Origin: Naegleria gruberi
Lineage: Eukaryota
DNA length: 64,000 nt
Direction: 5' to 3' (one strand)
NCBI GenBank assembly: GCA_000004985.1
Contig: GG738882.1
Part shown: in pieces, positions 1-23,750 of the stretch
Position numbering within the stretch: position 1 is the first letter of the stretch
Layout of the letters: the number at the start of each line of letters is the position of its first letter
Made by a program: the position numbers and the translations under genes
Notes under the pieces: generated by a model
What the model saw: the letters and a program-made list of their open reading frames with translations, nothing else
Told to the model about the DNA's origin: nothing
The model's database searches: none

Positions 1-759
1 TATTTAGTTTGGAAAGCTGTGAAAATATTGAGGGATAAATATCGAATTTTAACAATTCCTTTTGGATCACTGCCCAATTATATTCAACAAAATGTATATA
101 GCTCTTTACCTTGTTTGATAACACCTGAATCTGTTAGTTTGGGAGTGGAGAAGGGATTTATTCGAGTTTATGAGGATTTAAATAGATCTAATGTGACAAG
201 TTTGGATGAAATATTACTCAACAAACACAGTAGCAAGACACCAACTCAATTACCTTCAAATGTTCCAGCAGGTCATAATGCTGGTCTTTCCCAGAATATT
301 TATTTATTTACAATGTCCTACAATCAGTCAACTGAGAAATACTCACAAGAACCTAAAGATATTACTCATTTGTGGAAGCATCCTTATACTCCTTCTGAAA
401 AAAATAAGTATGAAGTATTTAAGGATTTACATTCGAATTGTGGATTCTTCCTTACGAGTGGTGATAAATTTGGATGTGATTTCTTGGCCTATAAGGGAGA
501 TCCAGTTCTCCACCATGCAGAATTTCTGGTCTATGTTCAGGAGTATGATAAACCGATTGAATCATTCCAAATGATTAGTATTGGAAGATTGGCCAACAAT
601 GTTCACAAAACTGTACTCTTTGCATCGTGGAATCCTCAATCCAATCAAGTGGAATATTTAAATATGAATTGGTTCAATCCTCAGCCCATCAAAACTTGGA
701 AAATCAAAGAATTATGTAACAAGTACAAACAAGAACTTAACAACCAAACCTCTCATTAA
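1..759 (+). CDS. tRNA-splicing endonuclease catalytic subunit (Sen2/Sen34-like), 5'-truncated at the window edge
   Basis: The reading frame is open from nt 1, so the ORF tool's 'M' at 19 is a GTG and not a real start. The C-terminal motif GDKFGCDFLAYKGDPVLHHAEFLV matches the tRNA-intron endonuclease catalytic domain (G-KFG-DFLvY-GDP...H). Stop at 757-759. Confidence 0.55.
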   Translation, partial: YLVWKAVKILRDKYRILTIPFGSLPNYIQQNVYSSLPCLITPESVSLGVEKGFIRVYEDLNRSNVTSLDEILLNKHSSKTPTQLPSNVPAGHNAGLSQNIYLFTMSYNQSTEKYSQEPKDITHLWKHPYTPSEKNKYEVFKDLHSNCGFFLTSGDKFGCDFLAYKGDPVLHHAEFLVYVQEYDKPIESFQMISIGRLANNVHKTVLFASWNPQSNQVEYLNMNWFNPQPIKTWKIKELCNKYKQELNNQTSH

Positions 760-855: not shown

Positions 856-2938
856 ATGCAAAACAACAACGTGATTACTCTTTCGGATGGTGAAGATGAA
901 GACGATGAAGTTGTGTCAATCTCCAATCCGAATACCAGTCCCAACAATATTGGTAATGCACCATTGATGAGAATGAACAATGGAGGAGCATTAATTCAGA
1001 ATAATAATAATAATATTAATCGGAATGTTTTCATACCTCCTCCATCGTTGGTTCCTTCCTCTTCTGTAATGGTTGGATCCTCTTCATCGAGTGTACTGCC
1101 TGCGAATGAAAATATTGGTGGTGGTGATGAAGGTGGTGATGAGAATGACGATGATGTATTGATTGATGAACCTGAAGATGATGAGGATAAAGATAATATT
1201 TGTCTAATTTGTCAAGATGAATGGAAAACAGAATCAAATCATCCTCACAAAGTCGTGGCTCTTAATTGTGGTCACATATTTGGACATTCTTGCATTTCTC
1301 AATGGTTACAAACCAAAAGAATTTGTCCTGTCTGTAAGAGACCTGCCGAAGAATCTGATTTGAGACCTATTTTCATTCAATCATCAGCTAATAGATTTGC
1401 CATAGAAAAGATTCAGAAAATTAGTGACAGAGAAAAACAACATTTGAGGAGGAAATTAAGACAAGAAAGAAAAAAGAGAAGAATGTTTGAATCGAGAATG
1501 TTAAAATTAAGGGAAAAAATTAAGAGATACATTTCAAGCTCCTCCAATCCTAAAACTAATGTAAATACTGATGTACAGATATCTCAAAATCCAAAACAAT
1601 TTCTAAAAGAAATATATACCGAAATTGATTCATGTCCTTTTGAACTCAAACTAATAGATACAGAAAATATGGAATTTCAACCAGAAGACCCTGATGTTGT
1701 GATTCAATCATCAAATCAGAACTCGTGCTTTGGACAGTACAAAGTCATGAGAAATGATTATTCACACAGGTTATTTAAATTTTTGGATGATCCTGGTCAA
1801 ATAGCATTTGACACTCCAAGAAATGCTCTGAGTATTTACTCATCTATAGCGAACTTGTATATCGATATTCCACTTTTTGGGAGAAGCTCTAGTGCATCTC
1901 CTTCCTCACCAATAGATGTAATTGACCTCAATTACTCGTCGAAAACTAACTTAATTTATGCATCTCTTGAAAATAATGATATTAAGATTGTAGATGGTAG
2001 GACTAGAAATAGTGTAGTATTCGATATGAGACTATCTAGTAGAGCAAATTGTATCTGCATTAATGAAAAATATGAAAATTACTTCATATGTGGTACAGAG
2101 ACTGGAAATATTACAGTTTTAGACATTAGACTGCCTAGATGTATTGCCTTTGATTACCAAGTACCTCACAGTGGCATAACAACACATGCAAACTCTGTGG
2201 TTTCTATTGATTGCATACCATCCAGTGACACTATTCTTTATTCTACCCTATCAGGAAATTATCAAGCCAAGCTGAACTTTGAATCGAATGATGTTATTGC
2301 AGACATTGGAGATACAAGCACCATTCAACCTGACTCTGTGCAAGATATTTCTTTTCCATTCATTCCAAAATCCCTCAAACCATTCAATATGAAATATGAC
2401 AGCTACTCAAAACGTACTTTATTTTCTTACTCTACTTTTGGAAATCCTCAAAGAACTATTGATCACTTAATTTTGAAAGAAACTAATAATGCTTTCCCAG
2501 TTACTGATGATATGATAAAAATAGAAGAAAAAGATGACCTTTCTTCACCACTCCAGTTTACTTCATTTGAAAGATGTATGTATTTTAATGATTTATCAAT
2601 TTGATTTTCTAATATTTACAGTTGAACATCATCCTACACCTATCCGAAAGTTCAAAGCACCAACTTGTTTATTCAATTTAACAACTACTGGACTGATTGA
2701 TTTGGATTCTAGTACTAATACTCAATCATACTCATATCTTAATGGTACATCACTTATGGCATATACAGGAAATAGAAAATTGACATTTGTTAATACTTTA
2801 ACAGGAAATAATTTCCAAACCATAAAGACAGACAATCTGCTGCCAGCATCCTGTCTTGACAGTTTGAACTGCCCTATGGGAACTTATATTGGCCAACTAT
2901 CTCCTGAATCACTTTCAATATATGTCTATAAAGGATAA
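856..2938 (+). CDS. RFWD3: RING-finger + WD40 E3 ubiquitin ligase, RFWD3-like; exons 856..2575 and 2622..2938, intron 2576..2621 (46 nt, GTATGT...TAATATTTACAG)
   Basis: C3HC4 RING (CLICQDEW...NCGHIFGHSCISQWL...CPVCKR), followed by a coiled-coil and WD-like repeats. ORF 856..2604 runs into a GTATGT at 2576, and the phase-1 splice rejoins the frame of ORF 2534..2938 (...SFER|F|EHHPTPIRKF...). A-rich context before the ATG. Confidence 0.65.
2576..2621 (+). other. Spliceosomal intron (46 nt) GTATGT...TTTCTAATATTTACAG
   Basis: The intron is required to join ORFs 856..2604 and 2534..2938 in frame. A branch-like CTAAT lies 9 nt before the AG. Confidence 0.6.
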
Positions 2939-3652
2939 TTATACGAATTTTGACCACTTTGAATTAGATGATTTGTTAATGGTTGGATTATTTGCAAATG
3001 TTGGTTTAGTCTTCTTTTTTGGTTGTTCATCCTCTTCCTCAAAAAAGAAGTGGTCATTATCTTCACTTGTTTGAGGAATTGTTTCATCATTGTAAGAATC
3101 CCAATCACTATTATTTTTCTTATTACTTGTGGACTTGGTATTTCTGCTATTACCTGAATTGTAGCTGTCATATTCATCATATTCAGCATATTCTCCTTCA
3201 TCTCCATCATCCTCAGCTTTTTTCCTCTTTTTACTTTGCGATTTAGTTGCAGGCTTTCTTGATTTCTTCTCCTTTTCCAAACTTGTCACAACATCAAATC
3301 CCTCGTCCTCATCCTCATCATCATCATGAACATATCTTTTCTTTTCCTCCTTGAATTGACTCCATTTACTAGCCGATGCCTGTTTGTAAATTGGTTTTTT
3401 CTCCACAATTTGTTCTTCATTTTCCTCCTCCAATTGTCTAGCCTCCAAAACTTCCTGTTCAATTTCACCTCTCTTCATATTTAATTCTTGAACAATTGGT
3501 CGAAGATCCTTCGGTTGATTAGAGTTGGCAAATACTTTTCTGATCGATTGTTGAGAGCCACATAATTTACATTTCCACTTCCGATTCTTTGTCACCTGAT
3601 TAATACTAAAGGCTGTGCAATTAAAACATTGGAAGATGGCGTGTTCTGGCAT
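2939..3652 (-). CDS. MRNIP: MRN-complex-interacting protein (MRNIP/C5orf45)-like
   Basis: The N-terminus MPEHAIFQCFNCTAFSINQVTKNRKWKCKLCGSQQSI has the same architecture as the MRNIP N-terminal zinc-ribbon-like motif (FHVLRCFSC..FQVQQVKKS.KWTCKACGEKQS). The tail is acidic and K-rich. The start context is aaaaaaaaATG. Confidence 0.6.
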   Translation of the reverse strand: MPEHAIFQCFNCTAFSINQVTKNRKWKCKLCGSQQSIRKVFANSNQPKDLRPIVQELNMKRGEIEQEVLEARQLEEENEEQIVEKKPIYKQASASKWSQFKEEKKRYVHDDDEDEDEGFDVVTSLEKEKKSRKPATKSQSKKRKKAEDDGDEGEYAEYDEYDSYNSGNSRNTKSTSNKKNNSDWDSYNDETIPQTSEDNDHFFFEEEDEQPKKKTKPTFANNPTINKSSNSKWSKFV

Positions 3653-4059
3653 TTTTTTTTATTTTGAAAAATTAAAAAAATTATTCCAGACAGAAGTGGA
3701 AGATTTTGTTGTGGAAAAAACAATTATTACTTAGTGGTATTTGCTTGATTACCAACATTAATTTACAAAAATTGGTTTTTCTCTCTTGTCATTGTTTCGA
3801 TTCGGCCTATTTTGAGTTTCCTGTTTCTACTGATATCAAAAGATTGAGACAAAATCAACATATTTCGAATCCTTAATAAGTGAAAAATCAAAATTAGATA
3901 CTCTTTAATTAGAAGATGATTATCTGGAACATTAATAATTATATATAAATAGTATAATTTTGGAAATTGTATTTTCATAGTCATTCCAATTCGTTTATTT
4001 AAAAAGTAAATTATACTAATCAAACTCTTTGCTTCCAATTCACACACAACAAAAAAAAC

Positions 4060-4900
4060 ATGAGCACTACAAATCGTCTAATAATATTTAGAGGAATTTC
4101 TGGTTCAGGTATTTATATTAGAAATTAATAAATTCACATGGTTAATATTTACAGGAAAAACTCATATTTGTGATCAGTTAATGATGAGATTTTTAGATAA
4201 TAAGGTCGATTCTCCTTCCATCAGAAATGTAATGAAACTTTCAAGAGATGATTTAAGGGCCAACCTCTTTCCAGACTTTGTCACACCGACCTTCAGCCAA
4301 GAGGAAGAAATGATGATTGATGAGTGGATCAAGAGGACAGTGAGGTATTTCTTTCATCACCACAATAATTCGAAAAACAAGGATGATGTACTCTATGTTT
4401 TTGTTGATGGCATGTGTTTAAACAGTAATGAATCTGTTAAATCTTTTGAAACACTCTGTAAAGGTATTGGAGTTGATGAAAAAGGGGAGGACGAAACTGT
4501 TAAAGAAATTGTTCAACTCACAACAACGATGGATTTACCTGGCATTCAATCATCCAACAATACGGGAGCTCAAGTACCAGATGATCATGTATCATGTGAA
4601 AAATTGACTAGAGTAATCAATGAACAACTAATCAATGTTGAGTCAAAGATCAAAAAATTGGCTTCTTTTTATTGTGTTGAAGTAGAAAGAGATGAATCAG
4701 ATTGTAAGGAAGCAATCGAGGAGATGAAAGATAGTCATCCAGCAAAACAGAGCAGAAATTATGATAAAACAAAACAAGAATTTACCAGATTGGATGAGAA
4801 ATACACCAAGACCATCAATTACAAATTTGTTTACAATAGAGAGGACAAACTTGAAGAAATTGTTAATGATTTGACAGAATGGATTAGACAAAATGATTAG
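4060..4900 (+). CDS. P-loop NTPase/kinase (AAA_33-like); exons 4060..4108 and 4155..4900, intron 4109..4154 (46 nt)
   Basis: Exon 1 MSTTNRLIIFRGISGSG splices in phase 1 to KTHICDQL..., which completes a Walker A GISGSGKT. The intron GTATTT...TTAATATTTACAG shares its last 12 nt with the RFWD3-like intron. Confidence 0.55.
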
Positions 4901-5237
4901 AAATAAACTGAAATTGACTTGATTGTCACCAACAAAAAAGACAACTGGAATGGTGACCCTTTCACAGCAATCAAGCACACCAAACCATTGTTATCTCTCC
5001 GCCCAATGAATTATTTGCAGTATGATTGCTGACTTTATTAAAATAACTCAAACAATGCAACGGGCAGGAAATACTCAAGAAATGAATGTTGTGGTTTTAC
5101 GAAAAAGATTATTTTATTCAAGAAAGCATACAATTTCCGTAAGTTTGAACCAACTATTTCTCCCGCCATTGTATTTTCATTAATGTACAACAAAAACAAC
5201 AGACAAATAAAATACCTCAACAACAAGGAACTATACA

Positions 5238-5583
5238 ATGGTACGTGTCGTTTGATACAAACGGGTTTTTTAATGATGATGAAAAATAGAGCGAAATCGA
5301 TGAAACATTGAAGAGAATTAAGTCTCATAAGGGAGTGGAAGGAATTGTTATTGTAAATAGTGAAGGAATACCTATTAGATCGGATTTTATGAATGATGAT
5401 GTAAAAGTAAAATATGCTGCCAATATAACACAATTAGTTGCCAAAGCTAGATCGGTCGTCAGAGATCTCAATCCTCAAAACGATTTAACCTTCTTGAGAG
5501 TAAGAACAAAACTCCATGAAATTTTAATTGCCCCAGATAAGGAATATATTTTAATAGTTGTACAGAATACCAACTTTGAATAA
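5238..5583 (+). CDS. DYNLRB: Dynein light chain roadblock-type (LC7); exon 1 is the ATG only (5238..5240), intron 5241..5289 (49 nt, GTACGT...AAAATAG), exon 2 5290..5583
   Basis: The spliced product M|[31 protein letters not shown]...[41 protein letters not shown] aligns end to end with animal DYNLRB1 ([32 protein letters not shown]...). It is about 98 aa. Confidence 0.75.
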
Positions 5584-5729
5584 ATTATTAGTTATTTAAT
5601 AAAGCCAATTATTTCATGAAGAATCAATTATTTTCTAAATCTTTGCTGTTATGACTATAATTTAAAAAGGCGGGAAGAACAAGAGTTTATTGCAAATGGC
5701 GCCAAATTCTACACTTTTCATCTTAAAAA

Positions 5730-6830
5730 ATGTCTCAAGACTCAAGTATTAATGATTCTTCTCTAATGTTGGACGATTCTATATCTTTCTCAAACCGTTT
5801 TGATTTTGAGGAAACTATAAGGCAAATCCAAGAACAAAGCAAGAAAGTCAGCAACCACTTGAATCAATATTCTAAATATCTTGCTCCGAGCCCTAAAGTT
5901 GAAAAAGAACAACAAAGTATCAAACCCACTACAACAACATCAAATAAGCAAAGCTCTCCTACAGCTAATTACTATACCTCAGTCCCAACAACCACAACAA
6001 CAAGGCCTCCATCGGTAAATTCAGTCTCTATGGAAGCAAAACAAAGTATAACATCAGGATCGGGGAGCAATTCTCTCCACAACCCTACTAAGAGTGTCCA
6101 ATCTGTGGCCACGCCTCTAACCTCTAAATATTCTCCGTCTGACCCCATTGAGGCTTTGATGAGGGATTTTCGAAATGAAGTTAAGGACATTGATAACTGT
6201 ATTCATCACTCAAATGATACTCCAGAGAGTTACAAATACGACTCTCTTTATAAAGACGAAGAGACAGATGGATATGAAGAGGAACCTGAATACTCTCTGT
6301 ACAATACCTCCACTCCTATCAATGAATCAGTTAAAAAATCTAACAGATTAGTTACTGAATCAATGTCAAAATTTAAAAGAATGAACGAACATGATTCTCA
6401 ACCAATTTTACCTAACAAGCCACCTACATCATCACATCGTTTGGGAGCTCACAATGATAGTGTTTTTTCTCCAATTTTGAATAGCTCTTCCAAGACTTCA
6501 CATACCTCTTCGCCAATGATTACCTTCTCCACGGCAGAGAAGAGTAGAGTTACTGATCCAGATATCATGTTTACTCCTCAACATTTAGGAGGAAGTGGAT
6601 TATTTTCAAGTAGCAATATCACTAATCAAGAAAAACAAAAACAAATTGTACCACAACAATCAAACCAAGCATCATCAAACACTGAAATGTTGCTTAGAAT
6701 TGAGAATATTCAGCTTAAAGATGAAATATCCAAATTGAACTCTACTGTGGTATCTCTACAAAGTAGAATGGAAGGAATGGAAAAGAGTATGAAACAATTA
6801 TTCGATTTGTTAACTCATCAAAATAAATAA
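5730..6830 (+). CDS. Hypothetical Ser/Thr-rich protein with C-terminal coiled-coil
   Basis: Uninterrupted 366-aa ORF with an A-rich start context. Low-complexity S/T/N tracts. The C-terminus LRIENIQLKDEISKLNSTVVSLQSRMEGMEKSMKQL is a heptad-like coiled-coil. Confidence 0.45.
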   Translation: MSQDSSINDSSLMLDDSISFSNRFDFEETIRQIQEQSKKVSNHLNQYSKYLAPSPKVEKEQQSIKPTTTTSNKQSSPTANYYTSVPTTTTTRPPSVNSVSMEAKQSITSGSGSNSLHNPTKSVQSVATPLTSKYSPSDPIEALMRDFRNEVKDIDNCIHHSNDTPESYKYDSLYKDEETDGYEEEPEYSLYNTSTPINESVKKSNRLVTESMSKFKRMNEHDSQPILPNKPPTSSHRLGAHNDSVFSPILNSSSKTSHTSSPMITFSTAEKSRVTDPDIMFTPQHLGGSGLFSSSNITNQEKQKQIVPQQSNQASSNTEMLLRIENIQLKDEISKLNSTVVSLQSRMEGMEKSMKQLFDLLTHQNK

Positions 6831-6992
6831 TAGGTCAATGAAATCTAGATTGACTAAACATTTCAAGATCCTATCTTTATATGTTTAACAATATTTTATT
6901 ATTTAAATTATAATATTTTTTGGTCCCTTATTGATGACCCTTAAATTAAGTTAATTGTACAAAATTCGTTTTGATTCCTGCTCTAAAGTGAA

Positions 6993-9029
6993 TTAATAGA
7001 CACGCTTGAATGGTGGAATATATCCCCACTCCTTTTCATCGAGAGTATAACTGTGGACTGGTCTATATTCAATATTGACCTTACCAGTATCAACATCCAT
7101 TGTGGTAAGAGTGTGCTTCATCCATGTAGCATCATCTCTGTCTGGGAAGTCGTCACGAGCGTGAGCACCTCTGGATTCCTTTCTGTTTTCAGCTGAAAGC
7201 ATAGTTTGTACAGCATTGATCAAAAGGTTTTGTAATTCGAGAATTTCATAAAGGTTAACATTGTAAATTGGTGACTTATCGCCCAACTTAAGGTATGGGA
7301 GCTTATCATAAGCTTCCTTAATGAGTTTACAACCAGTTTCCAAAGTTTCTTGCTTACGATAGACAGCAGCATAGTTTTGCATGACACTTTGCATTTCCTT
7401 TCTCAATTCGTGACATTTGATAGTTCCCTTATCACTATTGAAAAGCTTATCCAAACGAACAATTGATTGCATACCAGCATCAGATGGAAGAGGCTTATGC
7501 TTAGTATCCTTTGGCAAATTTTCCATGACGTACAAAGCACAAGCACGACCAAAGACGACAAGATCCAAAAGTGAGTTAGCACCCAAACGATTAGCACCGT
7601 GAACAGAAGCACAAGCAACTTCACCAGCAGCCAACAAACCCTTAACTGGATAATCTGGTTGATCTTCAGACTTCTTATAGACAACTTGACCAGTGTAAAG
7701 AGTTGGAACACCACCCATATTGTAGTGAACAGTTGGAACGACTGGAATTGGTTCCTTAGTCAAATCGACACCAGCGAAAATCTTGGCAGTTTCAGTAATA
7801 CCTGGTAATCTTTCGTGAAGTAAATCAGTTGGCAAGTGATCCAAGTGCAAGTGAATGTGATCCTTCTTTGGACCGCATCCTCTACCTTCCAAAATTTCCA
7901 TAGTCATAGCTCTACTGACAACGTCTCTTGAAGCCAAATCCTTGACACTAGGAGCATACTTTTCCATAAAACGTTCACCTTCACTATTTCTCAAGAAACC
8001 ACCTTCACCACGAGCGCCTTCTGTAATTAAACAACCAGCACCATAGATACCAGTAGGGTGGAATTGAACAAATTCCAAATCTTGATTTGGTAAACCAGCT
8101 CTAGAAACCATGGCAGTACCGTCACCAGTACAAGTGTGAGCAGAAGTACATGAACCATAAGCTCTACCATAACCTCCTGTAGCCAAAATAGTGTAGTGAG
8201 AACGGAAACGATGCATACTACTATCTTCAAGACAATAAGTCATAACACCTCTACATTCATCTCCTTCCATCAACAAGTCCAAAGCGAAATATTCAATAAA
8301 GAATTGGACGTCATATTTCAAAGCCATACCATAGTTTGTGTGGAGAAGAGCGTGACCTGTTCTATCAGCAGCAGCACAACATCTTCTAGCTTGACCACCT
8401 TTACCAAACTTGATACTTTGACCACCGAAAGCTCTTTGATAAATTTTACCTTCAGGAGTACGAGAGAAAGGAAGACCCATATGTTCCATTTCAATAACGG
8501 CTTGTGGAGCTTCTTTACACATGTAGTGAATAGCATCTTGATCACCCAACCAATCGCTACCCTTGACTGTATCATAGGCGTGATAAGTCCAGTGATCTTC
8601 TGTCATATTTCCAAGAGCAGCGTTAATACCACCTTGAGCAGCAACAGTGTGTGATCTTGTTGGGAACAACTTGGAAATACAGGCAACCTTGTATCCAGCT
8701 TTGGCCAAGTTGGCAGCACAAACGAGACCAGCACCACCAGCACCTACAACAACAGCATCATAAGTATGGTCAATTACTGGATAAACTTGTGAGAGTTGTG
8801 GTCCCTTATCGGTCATTGTTCCTTGTCTAACAGCACTATTTCCTAGCACAACCAAATTTTTGGTATTAGATGAAAAACATCTTTTAGTATTGGATGTTGT
8901 TGTGGATGTTTTAGTAGTAGAATTAATTAATGATGATGAAGATGAAAAAACAGAGTTGTTTTTTAATTGTTGTTGGATTGAAGACTTCAAAGCAGAGACT
9001 CCCTTCAACTTTCTGCAAGACTTGAGCAT
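6993..9029 (-). CDS. SDHA: Succinate dehydrogenase flavoprotein subunit, mitochondrial (with presequence)
   Basis: FAD-binding [13 protein letters not shown], covalent-FAD region [14 protein letters not shown], catalytic [21 protein letters not shown], and C-terminal ...[11 protein letters not shown]. The N-terminal region is S/T/K-rich and presequence-like. I chose the start at the ATG at 9029-9027 because of its aaaaaATG context. The ORF track extends to 9125 through a non-ATG start. Confidence 0.9.
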
Positions 9030-9875
9030 TTTTTGAGTCTGAATATTTTTTATCAAAATATTTTTAAAATTATTTTCTTGCCTGCTGCAGCCAAAAATCA
9101 TCCGAAGCCTAAAACTCCCCAGCAAAAGACAGATGTTCTGTATGAAATGGATTAGAGAAGGGACAATAACAATGATATTCAGCTTGAGTGTTTGACCGAC
9201 AACTCTAAGTTGTGTTGTCCCTTGCTAGCGATATGCTTTGTTGCGATTCTCTCTTTTGATGACTAATTCAAGCAGCTGGGCTTGAATTTACAATAACTCA
9301 AATTGAACATTAAAAAATACATCAATTCAGAGATGAATTGCATCAAGGAATGAATGTTAAGGAAATTAGAGTTGTTTGAATTAGCTTATTTTACACATTT
9401 TAAATCAATGTCCAAAATGGAAGAATAAGGCAATCAATTACGATGATTATCATAATTGGTTAAGGATAAGATCATCATTAGTATAAATATTGTCTATCAA
9501 TTCAATTCATGAAATTCAATTTCATAGCAGGCAACATGCTTTTGATTAAGGACCCACTTGCCGAACCGTTTGAATCAATCAATATTTCATTTTACCAGTT
9601 CATGAAAAGCAACTTTCTGCTCTCCGAATAGACTATGATATCAATCGACATTGGATGAATTGATGAACGTTTTGGTTTCGTAAAGACATCTTGGGTGATC
9701 ACTTTTGGAACCTTGTTACCATTCCAAATATGATGTCAAACAAAAGTTCTGTATTGTTATCTGCCACCATTGTATCTATCTTTCCAATCATGCCAGTTGA
9801 TACTTCTTTAAATACCACTGGTGATACAAGTCCAATGCATCCAACAATCAAAAAAAACAAAACACTGTGTTAACA

Positions 9876-12758: not shown

Positions 12759-15700
12759 TTATTTCTTAGTATCACCAGAATAGAGGGAGATGATAGAATC
12801 GGTTGATCCAGCTGCTAAACACATTCTGAAAGGATGGAATGCAAGACATGAAATTGGACCAATTCTTTGACCTAAAAATCCGTCATGATAATAAATCATG
12901 CTTAATGTTTCACCTGATGTGTTGAAAACTTTGATGAATTGGTTATTGCTACCACAAGCCAATACAGGAGCATAATTATGGATGGCTAATGCTGTCATCG
13001 ATCCCTTATGAGCGTTGAATTGTCTTGTGCATTTGTTAGTAACTCTAGTATCCCAGAACATGATATCACCACTAGAATAACCAGTGATAACTTGATTGCT
13101 ATTGACATTTTGAATCTTGGCACTTACTACCCAATTCTTACTGACTTCTTCATAATTTGAAATAAGTTGGTGAGTAAGTACTGGTCCACTATTTGGTGAT
13201 TCTCTCTTGTCGAATAAGAGAACTTTACCATCACTACAACCAGCAGCAAAGAGATATCCATTATTTGGATCAGCCGCAATACTCGTAACTGGAACATCCA
13301 GAGGAATATTTTGAACACAATATTCCTTATCGACATCCCAAATCTTGACTTTTTCAATATCACCAGTGACATAAAGTGTACCATTGTGTTGTTGCCATTC
13401 TGTTAAAATTCCCAGACCTGAATCACTGCTGAGGGCTTCATGAGCAGCTCGGAAAGAAGATACTGGCTCTTCTTTCTTTTCATAATTCTTATAGATTGCA
13501 ACATTACCAGCTGCTGATGCAACCAACAACATGGATTGCTCTGCCTCTTCGTTAATGATATGGAAATCTGTAATTCTACTCTTGAGAATGTCACCACATC
13601 TAAATTGATTCACAATAGCACCTCTAACCCAATTCCAAACACTTAAACCATCATTCTCATCAGAAACTACTAAATATGGTTCAAATCCATGGAATTTCAT
13701 TTGAGAACAAATTTCACTTTCATTTCCAAAGAAACCAATTTGTTCTTCCAACTTCTTTTTACCAGCAACCTTGAGCATTGTATTGGCTTCCTTAACCAAA
13801 TGCTCGTTTCTCTTTCTTCTCTTAAGAACTTGTTGGGATACAAAGCTGTCATCCTTTGGTGAATTCTCGGTAAGAATTGGATTTGAAAAATATTCACAAC
13901 TTCTTTCATAAAAGTTTGATTTCATGAATATCATATTACTGTTAGAAGAAGAGGTGACATCCAAGCTGTCAGAGTCAGTATCTTCATCAGAATAATTGCT
14001 TTGTTGATTAACAAATCCGGCTTTCAAAAAGTCAGAATCACTAGCGCTTCTTCTCATTGATAATTTGTCAATCAATCTCTTTTGCATTGGCTTGGCTGGA
14101 CTCTTTGGAGTATTTTGAGTATTATTGAATGCCTTTTCTTTGATGAGGAAGAGTTCTCTTTCGAAATCTTCATCGTTCAATTTTGAGTAAGTATACCTCA
14201 TAAAGCTCAGAATCTTGTGGGCTTCTTCGGCAACTTCGCGAACAGGATCAAAACACAACATAATAGCCACTCTACAAACGTCAAGAGCAAAATATGAAAG
14301 TTGACCAAGCTCTCTATCCTTCATATCTTTGAGAACTCGGGCATCCTTTGGAGTGGAAGGTTGAGTGGTAACTTCATCAACAGGTTTTCTTTCCTTCTTT
14401 TTCTTCTTCTTTTGTTGGAATATTAAAGTATTAGGTGATGATGAGTTTGAACCAGAAACCAAAATTGGTGTTGGGGCATTGTTGAGGTAGTGAGTTTCTT
14501 CCTTAATTATGGATTTCAAAAGTTCTGGTGCAATAAATTCGCCATATTGTTGAATAAATGTACCAAGAGCATAAACTAGCTCCTTTCTAACCATTGGAGA
14601 ACCATCCAAAATTGTTTGATAAAGAGCAGTGCAAATCTTGATTTCTCCTTGTACTCTTTCTTCGGATTTTTCTGGCTTATTTCCAACAAACTTTTGAAGA
14701 GTGAAAATACTTGCTGCTCTAACTTCTGGTACATCATCATTTAAAAGTCTTAAAACTTTTTCATGAGTAGTAGATTTGATAGCCAATTCTTGACCTTCAT
14801 CAAAATCTTCAACGAGCTTTGCAATCAAGAGACATGCCCACTTTCTAAGAATTGGATCTTGTTCAGTCAATTGAGAGGAGCAAAGATCAAACAAGTTCTT
14901 ATATTTGAGACATGCTTGTTGGCCAGGATTAAATCTATCTGCAATAACTGATAAAACAAAGCAAGACATTGCTCTCAATTCAGTATCATTATTTCTTTCA
15001 ACTAGTACATTGATGAAATAGCTATGACCATGATCCTTTACAAGATCAATTTGGCATGGTTTGTCGAGTGCCAAAATTTTAGTCCAAATAAATACTAAAA
15101 TTCTTCGAAGTTCTACAGAGTTACTTTGGAGAAGTTTGAGAACGTATGGGAAAATACCAACAGAGAGAGCCAAGTTTACAGCCCAGCTTCCCATATCCAA
15201 AAATCTTCCCAATAATGTGAGAGCTCTCAAACGATGGCTTTGACTGAGTAAAACTTGAAGTAAGATTGGGAGTTGTGTTGGTGGTTTTTGAATTCTATGA
15301 CCAAATTCCAACCAAACTTGGAAATCTGTAAGTTGTGCAGAGAAGAATGGGTTATATTGATATTCAGCACTTGGATTGTTAAATAAGTTAGGAAGTTGTG
15401 ATACACATTGGTCAAGAGCCAAATCCCATGCATCCCACATTGGATGGTTGTGTGTTTCAGGTAATTTAGGATAGCTTACTGGTGTACAATTAGCTGATCT
15501 CATAATTCTATCAGCCAACAAGAAATTTCTAAACAAACTAGCAACAAGAAGATCTTGTCTGAAAAGTTTGTGGAATAAATCTCTTGGTAAAACATTCCAA
15601 GCAATAGTATCAGTAACTGCAGTAAAGATCCAATTCAATTCACCAAGAGGTGTTCTTCTGTCATTGATTCTACCTGGAATATTTTCTATCAAGTCATCAG

Positions 15701-22595: not shown

Positions 22596-23750
22596 ATGTC
22601 CACGCCAGCAGATTCTGTTACTCCCACCGATCATACAACTACAACAACATCAATGGAGGATGATCCACAAAATACAGTAGTAACATCAAATTCTCGTGAA
22701 CAGGAGGATAAAGCGATGGCTGCTTTGGATTTATTCGGAGATCATGATGGTGGTGTAACAAAAATAACAACAACAACAAGTGGTGATAATAATAATATGG
22801 CTGATGAAGATGATGACGATGATGATGATTTATCTGATGATGATGACGATGGAGTTACTTTTGTGACTAGTACAGAAACTGCAGCACAAGCAGCTACAAC
22901 AAAACCAACAGAAGTTACACAAATTGCTATCGGTGATTCTAAAAACAATGTTAAAAGTCAAGCTAACAAATCTGTGGATTCACAATCAATTAATGGAGAT
23001 CAATTTAAAGGAAGTGGTTATGTAGAACTTTTTCCACTCAAGATGAATGAAAATGTCTTCTTCAATGATTTACAAAATTATGAAGATAAACCTTGGAGAA
23101 AACCTGGAGCAGATATTACAGATTATTTTAATTATGGTTTTAATGAGGAAACATGGGAATTGTACATTCAAAAACAAAGAGAATTGAGAGGAGTTTATTC
23201 ATCAAATTCCGAAAGAAGTAAATATGAGTCGAGGGATCAAAGAGGTTCTTCTAGGGATCCTCGTTCATCAGGAAAGGACGATAGATCTGGAAGACCACCT
23301 GCCTCTCCTGTCAGTACAACTAGTAGCAATAGTGATGATAGACGATATGATAGAAGAGACGATGATAGATATGGAAGAAGATATGATAGAAGAGATGACA
23401 GAAGAGACGATAGAAGAGACGACAGGCCAAGAGACGATAAGAGAGACATTAAGAAAGATAATACCCCAACTAGAGATTCAGATTACAATGATAAGAAGAG
23501 ACCTATTTCATCTTTGGAAAGTCCAAAATCTTCTTCATCAAACAGAGATAGTAGGGATAGTAGGGACAGTAGAGATAGTAGAGACGGAAGAGACTCAAAG
23601 CCTTATGGAGGAAAAGATAGCTACTATGGTGGCGATAGAGGAAGAGGTGGATCAAGCAGTGGTGGACGAGGAGGAAGCTCTTATGGAGGTAGCTCAAGTA
23701 GTAGCAGTGGTGGCAATAGAGGAGGAGATCCTAAGAAACAAAAACGTTAA
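22596..23750 (+). CDS. FIP1: Pre-mRNA 3'-end processing factor Fip1
   Basis: [34 protein letters not shown] is almost identical to the conserved Fip1 motif ([33 protein letters not shown]). It has an acidic N-terminus and an RD/RS/RG-rich tail like FIP1L1. Confidence 0.9.

What the first reader, a model, noticed from the sequence alone, without database searches (positions are those of the whole stretch)
856..3652. Two DNA-damage-response genes converge with abutting stop codons (TAATTA)
The RFWD3-like RING/WD40 ligase on the + strand ends with TAA at 2936-2938. The MRNIP-like gene on the - strand ends with TAA at 2941-2939 on the reverse complement. There is no intergenic base, so the two 3' UTRs must overlap as antisense. 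Both products act at stalled forks and double-strand breaks in animals. The overlapping antisense 3' ends could couple their expression.
Basis: partly seen in the sequence, partly recalled or inferred. Interest (0 to 1): 0.5.

Follow-up and report, generated by a model that had tools for sequence, protein, structure and literature searches.

The report
Abutting stop codons, convergent Naegleria genes
Two DNA-damage-response genes of the amoeba Naegleria gruberi do end back-to-back with no base between their stop codons, but this is ordinary tight gene packing in this group of organisms and shows no sign of a special link between the two genes.

Summary
TAA at 2936-2938 (+) and TAA at 2941-2939 (-) abut as TAATTA. 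The window is Naegleria gruberi. The minus gene (NAEGRDRAFT_50736) is a clear MRNIP-family member (Pfam 84.7 bits, cut-off 27). The plus gene (NAEGRDRAFT_70084) is a divergent RFWD3-family RING/coiled-coil/WD40 ligase. It reaches the abutting stop only if a 46-nt intron (2576-2621) is spliced. The public 582-aa model misses that intron and stops at 2604. The intron position and the last exon are conserved in N. lovaniensis and N. fowleri. The "coupling" idea is not supported. In those two species a SNAPC1 gene lies between the two genes, and the RFWD3-like stop abuts or nearly abuts SNAPC1 instead (0 and 8 nt). In Willaertia magna the convergent partner is a JAB/MPN gene (24 nt). Across 17 convergent junctions in these genomes the median stop-to-stop gap is 30 nt. 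The published median 3' UTR in N. gruberi is 39 nt, so short antisense overlap of 3' ends is probably routine. This is genome compaction and a known kind of arrangement. The useful by-products are two corrected gene models.

The parts
856..2575 (+). Exon 1 of the RFWD3-like gene (NAEGRDRAFT_70084). It holds codons 1-573 plus the first base of codon 574, and encodes an acidic and Ser/Asn-rich N-terminus, the RING, the coiled coil and most of the beta-propeller.
   Evidence: ORF 856..2604. 100% identical to P0001 / XP_002674707.1. RING domains above Pfam cut-offs.
1198..1338 (+). RING-H2-type zinc finger (residues 115-161). It carries the motif shared with RFWD3 proteins: C.IC..W....H..L.CGH.FG.SCI..WL...CP.C, followed by D[IL]R.I[FY].
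   Evidence: PF13639, 41.6 bits against a cut-off of 27.3. Nearly invariant columns in the alignments with RFWD3 proteins. pLDDT 80-97.
2576..2621 (+). 46-nt phase-1 spliceosomal intron, GTATGT...TAATATTTACAG. The public gene model misses it.
   Evidence: Splicing restores the frame. There is an intron at the same codon in N. lovaniensis (49 nt) and in the N. fowleri-like contig (45 nt). The 3' end is identical to that of a second 46-nt intron at 4109-4154.
2622..2938 (+). Exon 2 of the RFWD3-like gene (residues 574-678 plus stop TAA at 2936-2938). It encodes the last propeller blades.
   Evidence: Conserved in three Naegleria species and in Willaertia. It aligns to the C-terminal end of genuine RFWD3 propellers (hhalign Prob 98.8%, E 1e-16).
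2936..2941 (.). TAATTA, the two abutting stop codons, with zero intergenic bases. It is palindromic by construction.
   Evidence: Direct reading. The analogous TAGCTA lies at L001 13043-13048 in N. lovaniensis, where the partner gene is SNAPC1.
2939..3652 (-). Single-exon MRNIP-family gene (NAEGRDRAFT_50736, 237 aa). It has an N-terminal CxxC...CxxC zinc ribbon, an acidic/basic disordered tail and a C-terminal SKWSKFV motif.
   Evidence: PF15749 MRNIP, E 8.9e-24, 84.7 bits against a cut-off of 27, profile positions 2-106 of 106. 100% identical to P0004 / XP_002674783.1. The C-terminus is conserved in congeners (...SKWSKYL*).
1..759 (+). 3' part of the tRNA-splicing endonuclease (TSEN34-like) gene. 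It is the conserved upstream tandem neighbour of the RFWD3-like gene.
   Evidence: PF01974, E 6.4e-20. The same neighbour is found in N. lovaniensis, N. fowleri and Willaertia magna.

Best explanation
This is an ordinary tail-to-tail (convergent) gene pair in the compact nuclear genome of Naegleria gruberi. The + gene (NAEGRDRAFT_70084; corrected to two exons, 678 aa) encodes a divergent RFWD3-family E3 ligase with a RING, a coiled coil and a WD40 propeller. The - gene (NAEGRDRAFT_50736, 237 aa) encodes an MRNIP-family protein. Their stop codons abut because 3' intergenic DNA in heterolobosean genomes has shrunk to a few tens of bases or fewer. That part is shown. N. gruberi mRNAs carry short 3' UTRs (published median 39 nt, with the AAUAAA-type signal 15-20 nt before the cleavage site). 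Each mRNA must therefore end inside the last codons of the other gene on the opposite strand. The two mature mRNAs probably share a few tens of nucleotides of antisense overlap, and their 3'-end signals are probably embedded in coding sequence. That part is inferred. The adjacency of two DNA-damage-response genes is lineage-specific synteny and not a conserved functional unit.
For: The spliced model is backed by a conserved intron position and a conserved last exon. MRNIP is PF15749 at 84.7 bits against a cut-off of 27.

RFWD3 family: PF23419 is the best-scoring propeller model in all the Naegleria, Willaertia, Acrasis and related metagenomic sequences scanned. A profile of the Naegleria proteins, searched against 1.84 billion representatives, retrieves RFWD3 proteins right after its close relatives. 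Of the best 95 hits, 60 carry PF23419 at E<=1e-12, and no other family with more than 4 members appears. Named examples are RFWD3 of Centruroides and Chamberlinius. hhalign against 50 genuine RFWD3 propellers gives Prob 98.8% and E 1e-16 over 265 columns to the C-terminus. The structure model shows RING, long helix and beta-propeller.

Compaction is the norm. Stop-to-stop gaps at convergent junctions are 0, 30, 68, 156, 162, 175 and 273 nt in the window. They are 95, 58 and 0 in N. lovaniensis, 8 and 60 in N. fowleri, and 2, 24, 20, 8 and 21 in Willaertia magna.

The partner is not conserved. The RFWD3-like gene converges on SNAPC1 in N. lovaniensis (0 nt) and N. fowleri (8 nt), and on JAB/MPN in Willaertia (24 nt). 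MRNIP loci L003-L005 lack an RFWD3 neighbour. The 3' UTR and poly(A) figures are from PMC11529991.
Against: No transcript data for this locus could be examined, so the overlap of the mRNAs and its length are inferred. Neither gene has a canonical AATAAA or ATTAAA within 200 nt downstream of its stop. Only variants were found: TATAAA at 2927-2932 on the + strand and AATATA at 2890-2885 on the - strand. The real poly(A) sites therefore cannot be predicted, and the UTRs could be longer than typical. MRNIP and the RFWD3-like gene lie within 2 kb of each other in three Naegleria species, which leaves room for weak selection on linkage. The baseline rests on 17 junctions from ORF-based or public gene calls and not on a genome-wide curated set. 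The single-sequence Pfam score for the RFWD3 propeller is below the curated cut-off (18.9 against 47 bits). A profile of the three Naegleria C-terminal domains did not hit the human RFWD3 WD40 chain in PDB sequences at E<=10.
Confidence: 0.82

Rival explanations
1. Functional coupling. The abutment is selected because antisense overlap of the two 3' ends co-regulates two DNA-damage-response genes, through transcriptional interference, duplex formation or an RNAi-like route.
For: Overlap of the 3' ends is logically forced by the zero gap. Both families act at stalled forks or breaks in animals (MRNIP: PMC5014761, PMC7439443; RFWD3: PMC5459755, PMC7265328). Interference between convergent genes mediated by 3' UTRs is documented in yeast (PMC3900390). 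The two genes stay within 2 kb of each other in three Naegleria species.
Against: The tail-to-tail contact between these two genes exists only in N. gruberi. In N. lovaniensis and N. fowleri SNAPC1 lies between them and MRNIP is not convergent on the RFWD3-like gene. In Willaertia the partner is JAB/MPN, and other MRNIP loci have unrelated neighbours. Equally tight junctions join unrelated genes, such as TFIIE/BCS1 at 2 nt and RFWD3-like/SNAPC1 at 0 nt. No paper links MRNIP with RFWD3.
Confidence: 0.06
2. Gene-model artefact. The public model is right, the + gene ends at the TGA at 2602-2604, the ORF 2534..2938 is non-coding, and so there is no abutment of two real coding regions.
For: The deposited N. 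gruberi protein XP_002674707.1 is the unspliced 582-aa product. No RNA evidence for splicing could be examined here.
Against: The 105 residues of the proposed last exon are conserved in N. lovaniensis, N. fowleri and Willaertia (50% identity to N. lovaniensis over residues 575-677 by tblastn, E 3e-29). The intron sits at the identical codon position and phase in three species. In Willaertia the region is one continuous reading frame. The exon aligns to the final blades of RFWD3 propellers, which the truncated model lacks. The unspliced C-terminus (CMYFNDLSI) is modelled at pLDDT below 50.
Confidence: 0.03
3. The + gene is not an RFWD3 relative. It would be another RING/coiled-coil/WD40 ligase (COP1/RFWD2-like) or a lineage-specific RING-propeller protein, so the 'two DNA-damage genes' premise fails.
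For: PF23419 scores below its curated cut-off in every heterolobosean-type sequence scanned (18.9-38.8 bits against 47). The Foldseek PDB search puts COP1 complexes first, with the RFWD3 WD40 crystal structure 6cvz only at rank 20 (TM 0.53) among many generic WD40 propellers. The HMMER profile of the C-terminal domain does not hit the 6cvz sequence.
Against: All Pfam propeller families competed, and PF23419 ranks first or within a fraction of a bit of first in all but one of the sequences; that exception, P0126, was included only as a hit matching the propeller region. The best non-heterolobosean hits in 1.84 billion proteins are bona fide RFWD3 proteins. They match through the RING plus the adjoining helix, with a second matched stretch elsewhere in the protein. 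The RING-proximal motif (W..G.H..SL.CGHLFG.SCI..WL...CP.C...A...DIR.IY) is shared. hhalign gives E 1e-16. COP1 tops the fold list through a long multi-domain alignment with rmsd 35-40 A, which reflects shared architecture and not a closer propeller.
Confidence: 0.1

Closest known systems
Convergent gene pairs with overlapping 3' UTRs (cis natural antisense pairs), as catalogued in Saccharomyces cerevisiae (645 pairs, over 20% of genes; PMC3900390) and Arabidopsis (PMC3032780)
   Same: Tail-to-tail orientation. The 3' ends necessarily share DNA, which gives the potential for partly complementary mRNAs and transcriptional interference.
   Different: Here the coding regions themselves touch (gap 0), so the whole of each 3' UTR is antisense to coding sequence. 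Overlap of the transcripts is inferred and not measured. No regulatory effect is shown, and the pairing is not conserved in sister species.
Ultrashort 3' UTRs and 'dual-use' stop codon/poly(A) signals of compact protist genomes (Giardia, N. gruberi; PMC11529991)
   Same: Same organism and the same compaction regime: median 3' UTR 39 nt, and the AAUAAA signal overlaps the stop codon in about 11-13% of genes. Several genes in this window show AATAAA overlapping the stop.
   Different: Neither gene of this pair has AATAAA or ATTAAA at or within 200 nt after its stop. Only the one-base variant TATAAA lies 4 nt before the + gene's stop, and it is also the Tyr-Lys codons conserved at the protein level.
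RFWD3 (FANCW), the RING/coiled-coil/WD40 E3 ligase that ubiquitylates RPA and RAD51 (PMC5459755, PMC7265328, PMC10097976)
   Same: Same domain order. The RING and adjoining helix are most similar to RFWD3 among 1.84 billion proteins. The propeller scores best against the RFWD3 family model and aligns to it up to the C-terminus.
   Different: About 15-20% identity. The propeller carries insertions and scores below Pfam's curated cut-off. Function in Naegleria is untested.
MRNIP (C5orf45), the MRE11-RAD50-NBS1-interacting protein (PMC5014761, PMC7439443, PMC9098523)
   Same: Full-length match to the Pfam MRNIP domain, which includes the N-terminal four-cysteine ribbon, followed by a disordered charged tail.
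   Different: Shorter than the animal proteins. MRN binding is untested. The SKW[SA][KQ][FY] motif occurs twice, at residues ~94-100 and at the C-terminus.

Membership tests
MRNIP (Pfam PF15749) | Match to the family model above the curated gathering score, covering the whole domain | tested here: met
   84.7 bits against a cut-off of 27, E 8.9e-24, residues 7-100 on profile positions 2-106 of 106. The homologues found all carry PF15749.
MRNIP (Pfam PF15749) | N-terminal CxxC...CxxC zinc-ribbon-like motif | tested here: met
   C9-x2-C12 ... C28-x2-C31 in MPEHAIFQCFNCTAFSINQVTKNRKWKCKLCGSQQ. It is conserved in the N. lovaniensis and N. fowleri-like proteins.
MRNIP (Pfam PF15749) | Binding to MRE11-RAD50-NBS1 and a role in fork protection or break sensing | not testable with these tools
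   Known only for the mammalian protein (PMC5014761, PMC7439443).
RFWD3 | RING finger followed by a coiled coil, in that order, N-terminal to the propeller | tested here: met
   RING at 115-161 (PF13639, 41.6 bits). Helices at 176-187 and 191-229 in the model. Genuine RFWD3 proteins match profile positions ~85-240, spanning the RING and the helix.
RFWD3 | C-terminal propeller matching Pfam PF23419 (WD40_RFWD3) at or above the gathering score of 47 bits | tested here: not met
   N. gruberi 18.9 bits, N. lovaniensis 35.2, N. fowleri-like 31.6, W. magna 31.9, Acrasis 38.8. All are below 47 bits. PF23419 is still the best or joint-best propeller family in each of these.
RFWD3 | Propeller homologous to the RFWD3 propeller by profile-profile comparison over most of its length | tested here: met
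   hhalign of the Naegleria C-terminal alignment against 50 genuine RFWD3 propellers gives Prob 98.8%, E 1e-16 and 265 aligned columns, query 114-440 on template 63-332 of 333. No control against other WD40 families was run with hhalign.
RFWD3 | Nearest relatives outside its own clade are RFWD3 proteins (forward search of a whole-protein library) | tested here: met
   60 of the best 95 hits carry PF23419 at E<=1e-12, up to 399 bits, and no competing family appears. Named RFWD3 proteins of Centruroides and Chamberlinius are among them.
RFWD3 | Fold closest to the solved RFWD3 WD40 structure (6cvz) | tested here: inconclusive
   6cvz_C ranks 20th (E 1.4e-9, TM 0.53, rmsd 5.2 A over 276 columns) among many WD40 propellers, and COP1 complexes rank first. 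The model was built from the truncated 582-aa sequence because the spliced sequence was not accepted by the tool.
RFWD3 | RPA binding and RPA/RAD51 ubiquitylation | not testable with these tools
   Biochemical property of the animal enzyme (PMC5459755).
Functional cis-natural-antisense (convergent 3'-overlap) pair | Convergent orientation with shared 3' DNA | tested here: met
   Stops at 2936-2938 (+) and 2941-2939 (-), gap 0.
Functional cis-natural-antisense (convergent 3'-overlap) pair | Mature transcripts demonstrably overlap | not testable with these tools
   No RNA data could be reached. It is inferred from the median 3' UTR of 39 nt (PMC11529991).
Functional cis-natural-antisense (convergent 3'-overlap) pair | The pairing is conserved in related species, as expected if selected | tested here: not met
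   SNAPC1 intervenes in N. lovaniensis and N. fowleri. JAB/MPN is the partner in W. magna. MRNIP loci L003-L005 have unrelated neighbours.

The most novel reading that the evidence does not exclude
In N. gruberi specifically, absence of the intervening SNAPC1 gene leaves the RFWD3-like and MRNIP mRNAs in antisense 3' contact. The resulting overlap (tens of nucleotides, entirely within coding sequence) might then tie the levels of a fork-remodelling ligase and an MRE11 regulator together. That would be a lineage-specific regulatory link created by genome compaction.
Probability: 0.05. Interest if true: 0.4.

Novelty: new member of a known kind. Interest (0 to 1): 0.15.

Why it matters
As a biological finding it matters little. 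It is one more example of convergent genes sharing their 3' ends in a compact protist genome. It has three modest uses. First, it corrects two public gene models. N. gruberi NAEGRDRAFT_70084 lacks its last exon. N. lovaniensis C9374_001671 is a fusion of the tRNA-splicing endonuclease with the RFWD3-like gene and carries a false 3' intron. Second, it documents that MRNIP and a divergent RFWD3 exist in Heterolobosea, so both families are much older than animals. Third, it shows that coding-to-coding contact (0-24 nt) at convergent junctions is common in Naegleria and Willaertia. [quoted passage not shown] That constraint is worth analysing genome-wide with the existing direct-RNA data.

Tried and rejected
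- Exact-sequence look-ups of the two N. gruberi proteins for contig context found nothing on record. Context came from relatives instead.
I used the exact database proteins P0001-P0003, so the structure model lacks the last exon.
- PDB sequence searches with the full-length and C-terminal Naegleria profiles gave only generic RING and WD40 hits. They did not hit RFWD3 6cvz.
- The Foldseek PDB search did not discriminate RFWD3 from other WD40 propellers.
- I looked for canonical poly(A) signals after both stops and found none within 200 nt. Poly(A) sites could not be predicted.
- I looked for a hairpin or bidirectional terminator at the junction and found only short, weak inverted repeats within the coding regions.
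- tRNA and Rfam scans of the whole window were empty.
- The supplement of PMC11529991, which holds per-gene 3' UTR annotations, is not held.
- I searched for SNAPC1 in the window and in the protein database for N. gruberi and found none. Whether SNAPC1 was lost, moved or left unannotated, and which arrangement is ancestral, stays open.
- The COP1-like alternative and the unspliced-model alternative were considered and rejected on the evidence given under the rival explanations.
Full report
**What is in the sequence.** The window is AT-rich (34% G+C) eukaryotic DNA with short introns. Protein searches identify it as Naegleria gruberi. ORF 856..2604 is 100% identical to XP_002674707.1 (NAEGRDRAFT_70084). 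ORF 3652..2939 is 100% identical to XP_002674783.1 (NAEGRDRAFT_50736). Both lie on a 381,539-bp scaffold. Positions 2931-2941 read AAGGATAATTA. TAA at 2936-2938 closes a + strand frame, and TTA at 2939-2941 is the complement of the TAA that closes the - strand ORF.

**The + gene model.** The frame that ends at 2938 (ORF 2534..2938) differs from the frame of the long ORF 856..2604. Removing 2576-2621 joins them. This segment is 46 nt, runs GTATGT...TTTACAG and is phase 1. The result is a 678-aa protein. The public 582-aa model reads into this intron and stops at 2604. Four lines of evidence favour splicing.
- N. lovaniensis and a N. fowleri-like contig have an intron at the same codon and phase (FER|V/F|EHHPTP).
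- The last exon is conserved to the C-terminus. The endings are LSIYVYKG*, CSLYVYKE* and CSLYIYKE*, and the tblastn E-value is 3e-29.
- In Willaertia magna one uninterrupted match spans the junction.
- The exon aligns to the last blades of genuine RFWD3 propellers.

The abutment is therefore real at the level of coding regions, although it is absent from the public annotation.

**Identity of the two proteins.** The - gene is an unambiguous MRNIP-family member. PF15749 scores 84.7 bits against a cut-off of 27 and covers the whole domain, and the four-cysteine N-terminal ribbon is present.

The + gene has a RING (residues 115-161, above several Pfam cut-offs), a long helix (176-229) and a C-terminal beta-propeller. 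The RFWD3-specific propeller model PF23419 is the best or joint-best propeller family for N. gruberi, N. lovaniensis, the N. fowleri-like contig, W. magna and Acrasis kona. It always scores below its curated cut-off (18.9-38.8 against 47 bits).

I ran two further tests.
- A profile of the three Naegleria proteins, searched against 1.84 billion representative proteins, finds its own clade first and then RFWD3 proteins. Of the best 95 hits, 60 carry PF23419 at E<=1e-12 (up to 399 bits), and no competing family appears. Named RFWD3 proteins of a scorpion and a millipede are among them.
- hhalign of the Naegleria C-terminal domain against 50 genuine RFWD3 propellers gives 98.8% probability and E 1e-16 over 265 columns reaching the C-terminus.

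Two tests gave nothing specific. PDB sequence searches did not hit the human RFWD3 WD40 chain. The Foldseek search ranked it 20th among generic propellers, with COP1 first because it shares the three-domain architecture. I conclude that this is a divergent RFWD3-family ligase, with probability about 0.85-0.9. The formal Pfam criterion is not met.

**Is the abutment special?** It is not.
- In this window the seven convergent junctions have stop-to-stop gaps of 0, 30, 68, 156, 162, 175 and 273 nt. Most flanking ORFs are confirmed genes: PLP decarboxylase, Fip1, RCC1, a class II tRNA synthetase, SPX-EXS, PX and SDHA.
- In N. lovaniensis the RFWD3-like stop abuts the stop of a SNAPC1 gene as TAGCTA, with gap 0 once a false intron in the public model is removed.
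- In N. fowleri the same junction has 8 nt.
- In W. magna the RFWD3-like gene converges on a JAB/MPN gene with a 24-nt spacer that carries AATAAA on both strands. Other junctions there have 2, 8, 20 and 21 nt.

Pooled, the 17 junctions have a median of 30 nt. Twelve are shorter than twice the published median N. gruberi 3' UTR (39 nt; poly(A) signal 15-20 nt before cleavage; PMC11529991). Overlap of convergent 3' ends, with signals and cleavage sites inside the neighbour's coding sequence, must be routine in these genomes.

**Is the pairing of these two genes meaningful?** The upstream neighbour (TSEN34-type tRNA-splicing endonuclease) is conserved from Willaertia to Naegleria. The convergent downstream partner changes: MRNIP in N. 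gruberi, SNAPC1 in N. lovaniensis and N. fowleri, and JAB/MPN in Willaertia. In N. lovaniensis and N. fowleri MRNIP lies just beyond SNAPC1 in the same orientation. MRNIP and RFWD3-like are therefore linked within about 2 kb across the genus, but they are tail-to-tail only in N. gruberi. Three metagenomic MRNIP loci have flavokinase, RdRP or peptidase neighbours and no RFWD3-like gene. SNAPC1 is absent from the window, and no N. gruberi homologue turned up in the protein database. In Willaertia SNAPC1 sits about 120 kb away on the same contig. The direction of the change (deletion in N. gruberi or insertion in the other lineage) cannot be settled. No paper in the library mentions MRNIP and RFWD3 together. 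The comparative data therefore argue against a selected coupling.

**Mechanism.**
- Shown: two real genes, convergent, zero spacer.
- Inferred: each mRNA extends some tens of nucleotides into the antisense of the other's last codons. Neither has AATAAA or ATTAAA within 200 nt after its stop. The + gene has TATAAA at 2927-2932, four bases before its stop. These bases are also the conserved Tyr-Lys codons, so the real sites cannot be called from sequence.
Poly(A) sites inside the other gene's coding region are exactly what a zero gap forces.

**Comparison and verdict.** The arrangement belongs to the well-known class of convergent pairs with overlapping 3' ends (645 pairs in yeast; PMC3900390). 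It also fits the described ultrashort-UTR regime of N. gruberi (PMC11529991). It is a new instance and not a new kind. Interest is low. The main value lies in the corrected gene models and the small survey showing how tight convergent junctions are in Heterolobosea.

Noticed in passing
window 856-2938: The public N. gruberi model XP_002674707.1 (NAEGRDRAFT_70084, 582 aa) misses the 46-nt intron at 2576-2621 and lacks the last 105 residues of the propeller. The corrected protein is 678 aa.
   Followed up: yes
L001 10001-13045 (N. lovaniensis PYSW02000013.1): Gene model C9374_001671 (897 aa) is a chimera of the TSEN34-type tRNA-splicing endonuclease and the RFWD3-like gene. It also removes a false intron near the 3' end, which gives a wrong C-terminus. 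The true stop is TAG at 13043-13045 and abuts the SNAPC1 stop.
   Followed up: yes
window 2576-2621 and 4109-4154: Two 46-nt phase-1 introns, in the RFWD3-like gene and in a P-loop gene starting at 4060, are 32/46 identical without gaps and share the last 12 nt, TAATATTTACAG. That 12-mer (up to 1 mismatch) occurs 7 times in the window against 0.8 expected. It is probably the branch-site plus 3' splice-site consensus of short Naegleria introns, though related introns are not excluded.
   Followed up: partly
window (whole) and the protein database: No SNAPC1 (snRNA-activating complex subunit 1) homologue was found for N. gruberi, either in the window or in the protein collection. N. lovaniensis, N. 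fowleri and Willaertia magna each have one. It may be lost, relocated or unannotated.
   Followed up: partly
L006 8100-8129 (Willaertia magna JBEGDK010000162.1): A 24-nt spacer between the convergent RFWD3-like and JAB/MPN genes contains AATAAA on both strands (AAAATAAAACTTTATTTTA). This is a minimal bidirectional poly(A)-signal spacer. TFIIE-alpha and BCS1 in the same locus are 2 nt apart.
   Followed up: partly
P0014 (Acrasis kona KAL0478243.1): A protein named 'myosin heavy chain' in the source record is a homologue of the RFWD3-like propeller protein (PF23419 is its best family, at 38.8 bits). It is probably misnamed because of its coiled coil.
   Followed up: no
window 2939-3652 (-), residues ~94-100 and 231-237: The MRNIP-like protein carries the motif SKW[SA][KQ][FY] twice, at the end of the Pfam domain and as the extreme C-terminus. 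Both copies are conserved in N. lovaniensis and the N. fowleri-like protein.
   Followed up: no
window 3653-9224 compared with L001 14760-17739: In N. lovaniensis and N. fowleri MRNIP is directly followed by the succinate dehydrogenase flavoprotein gene. In N. gruberi three + strand genes lie between them: a P-loop protein at 4060-4900, a roadblock/LC7-like ORF at 5308-5583 and a Ser/Thr-rich ORF at 5730-6830. Micro-synteny here has been rearranged on both sides of MRNIP.
   Followed up: partly
window 23334-23447: A 12/24-nt tandem repeat (GATGATAGAAGA-like, about 9 copies) lies inside the Fip1-domain gene at 22596-23750. It encodes an Asp/Arg/Glu-rich repeat.
   Followed up: no
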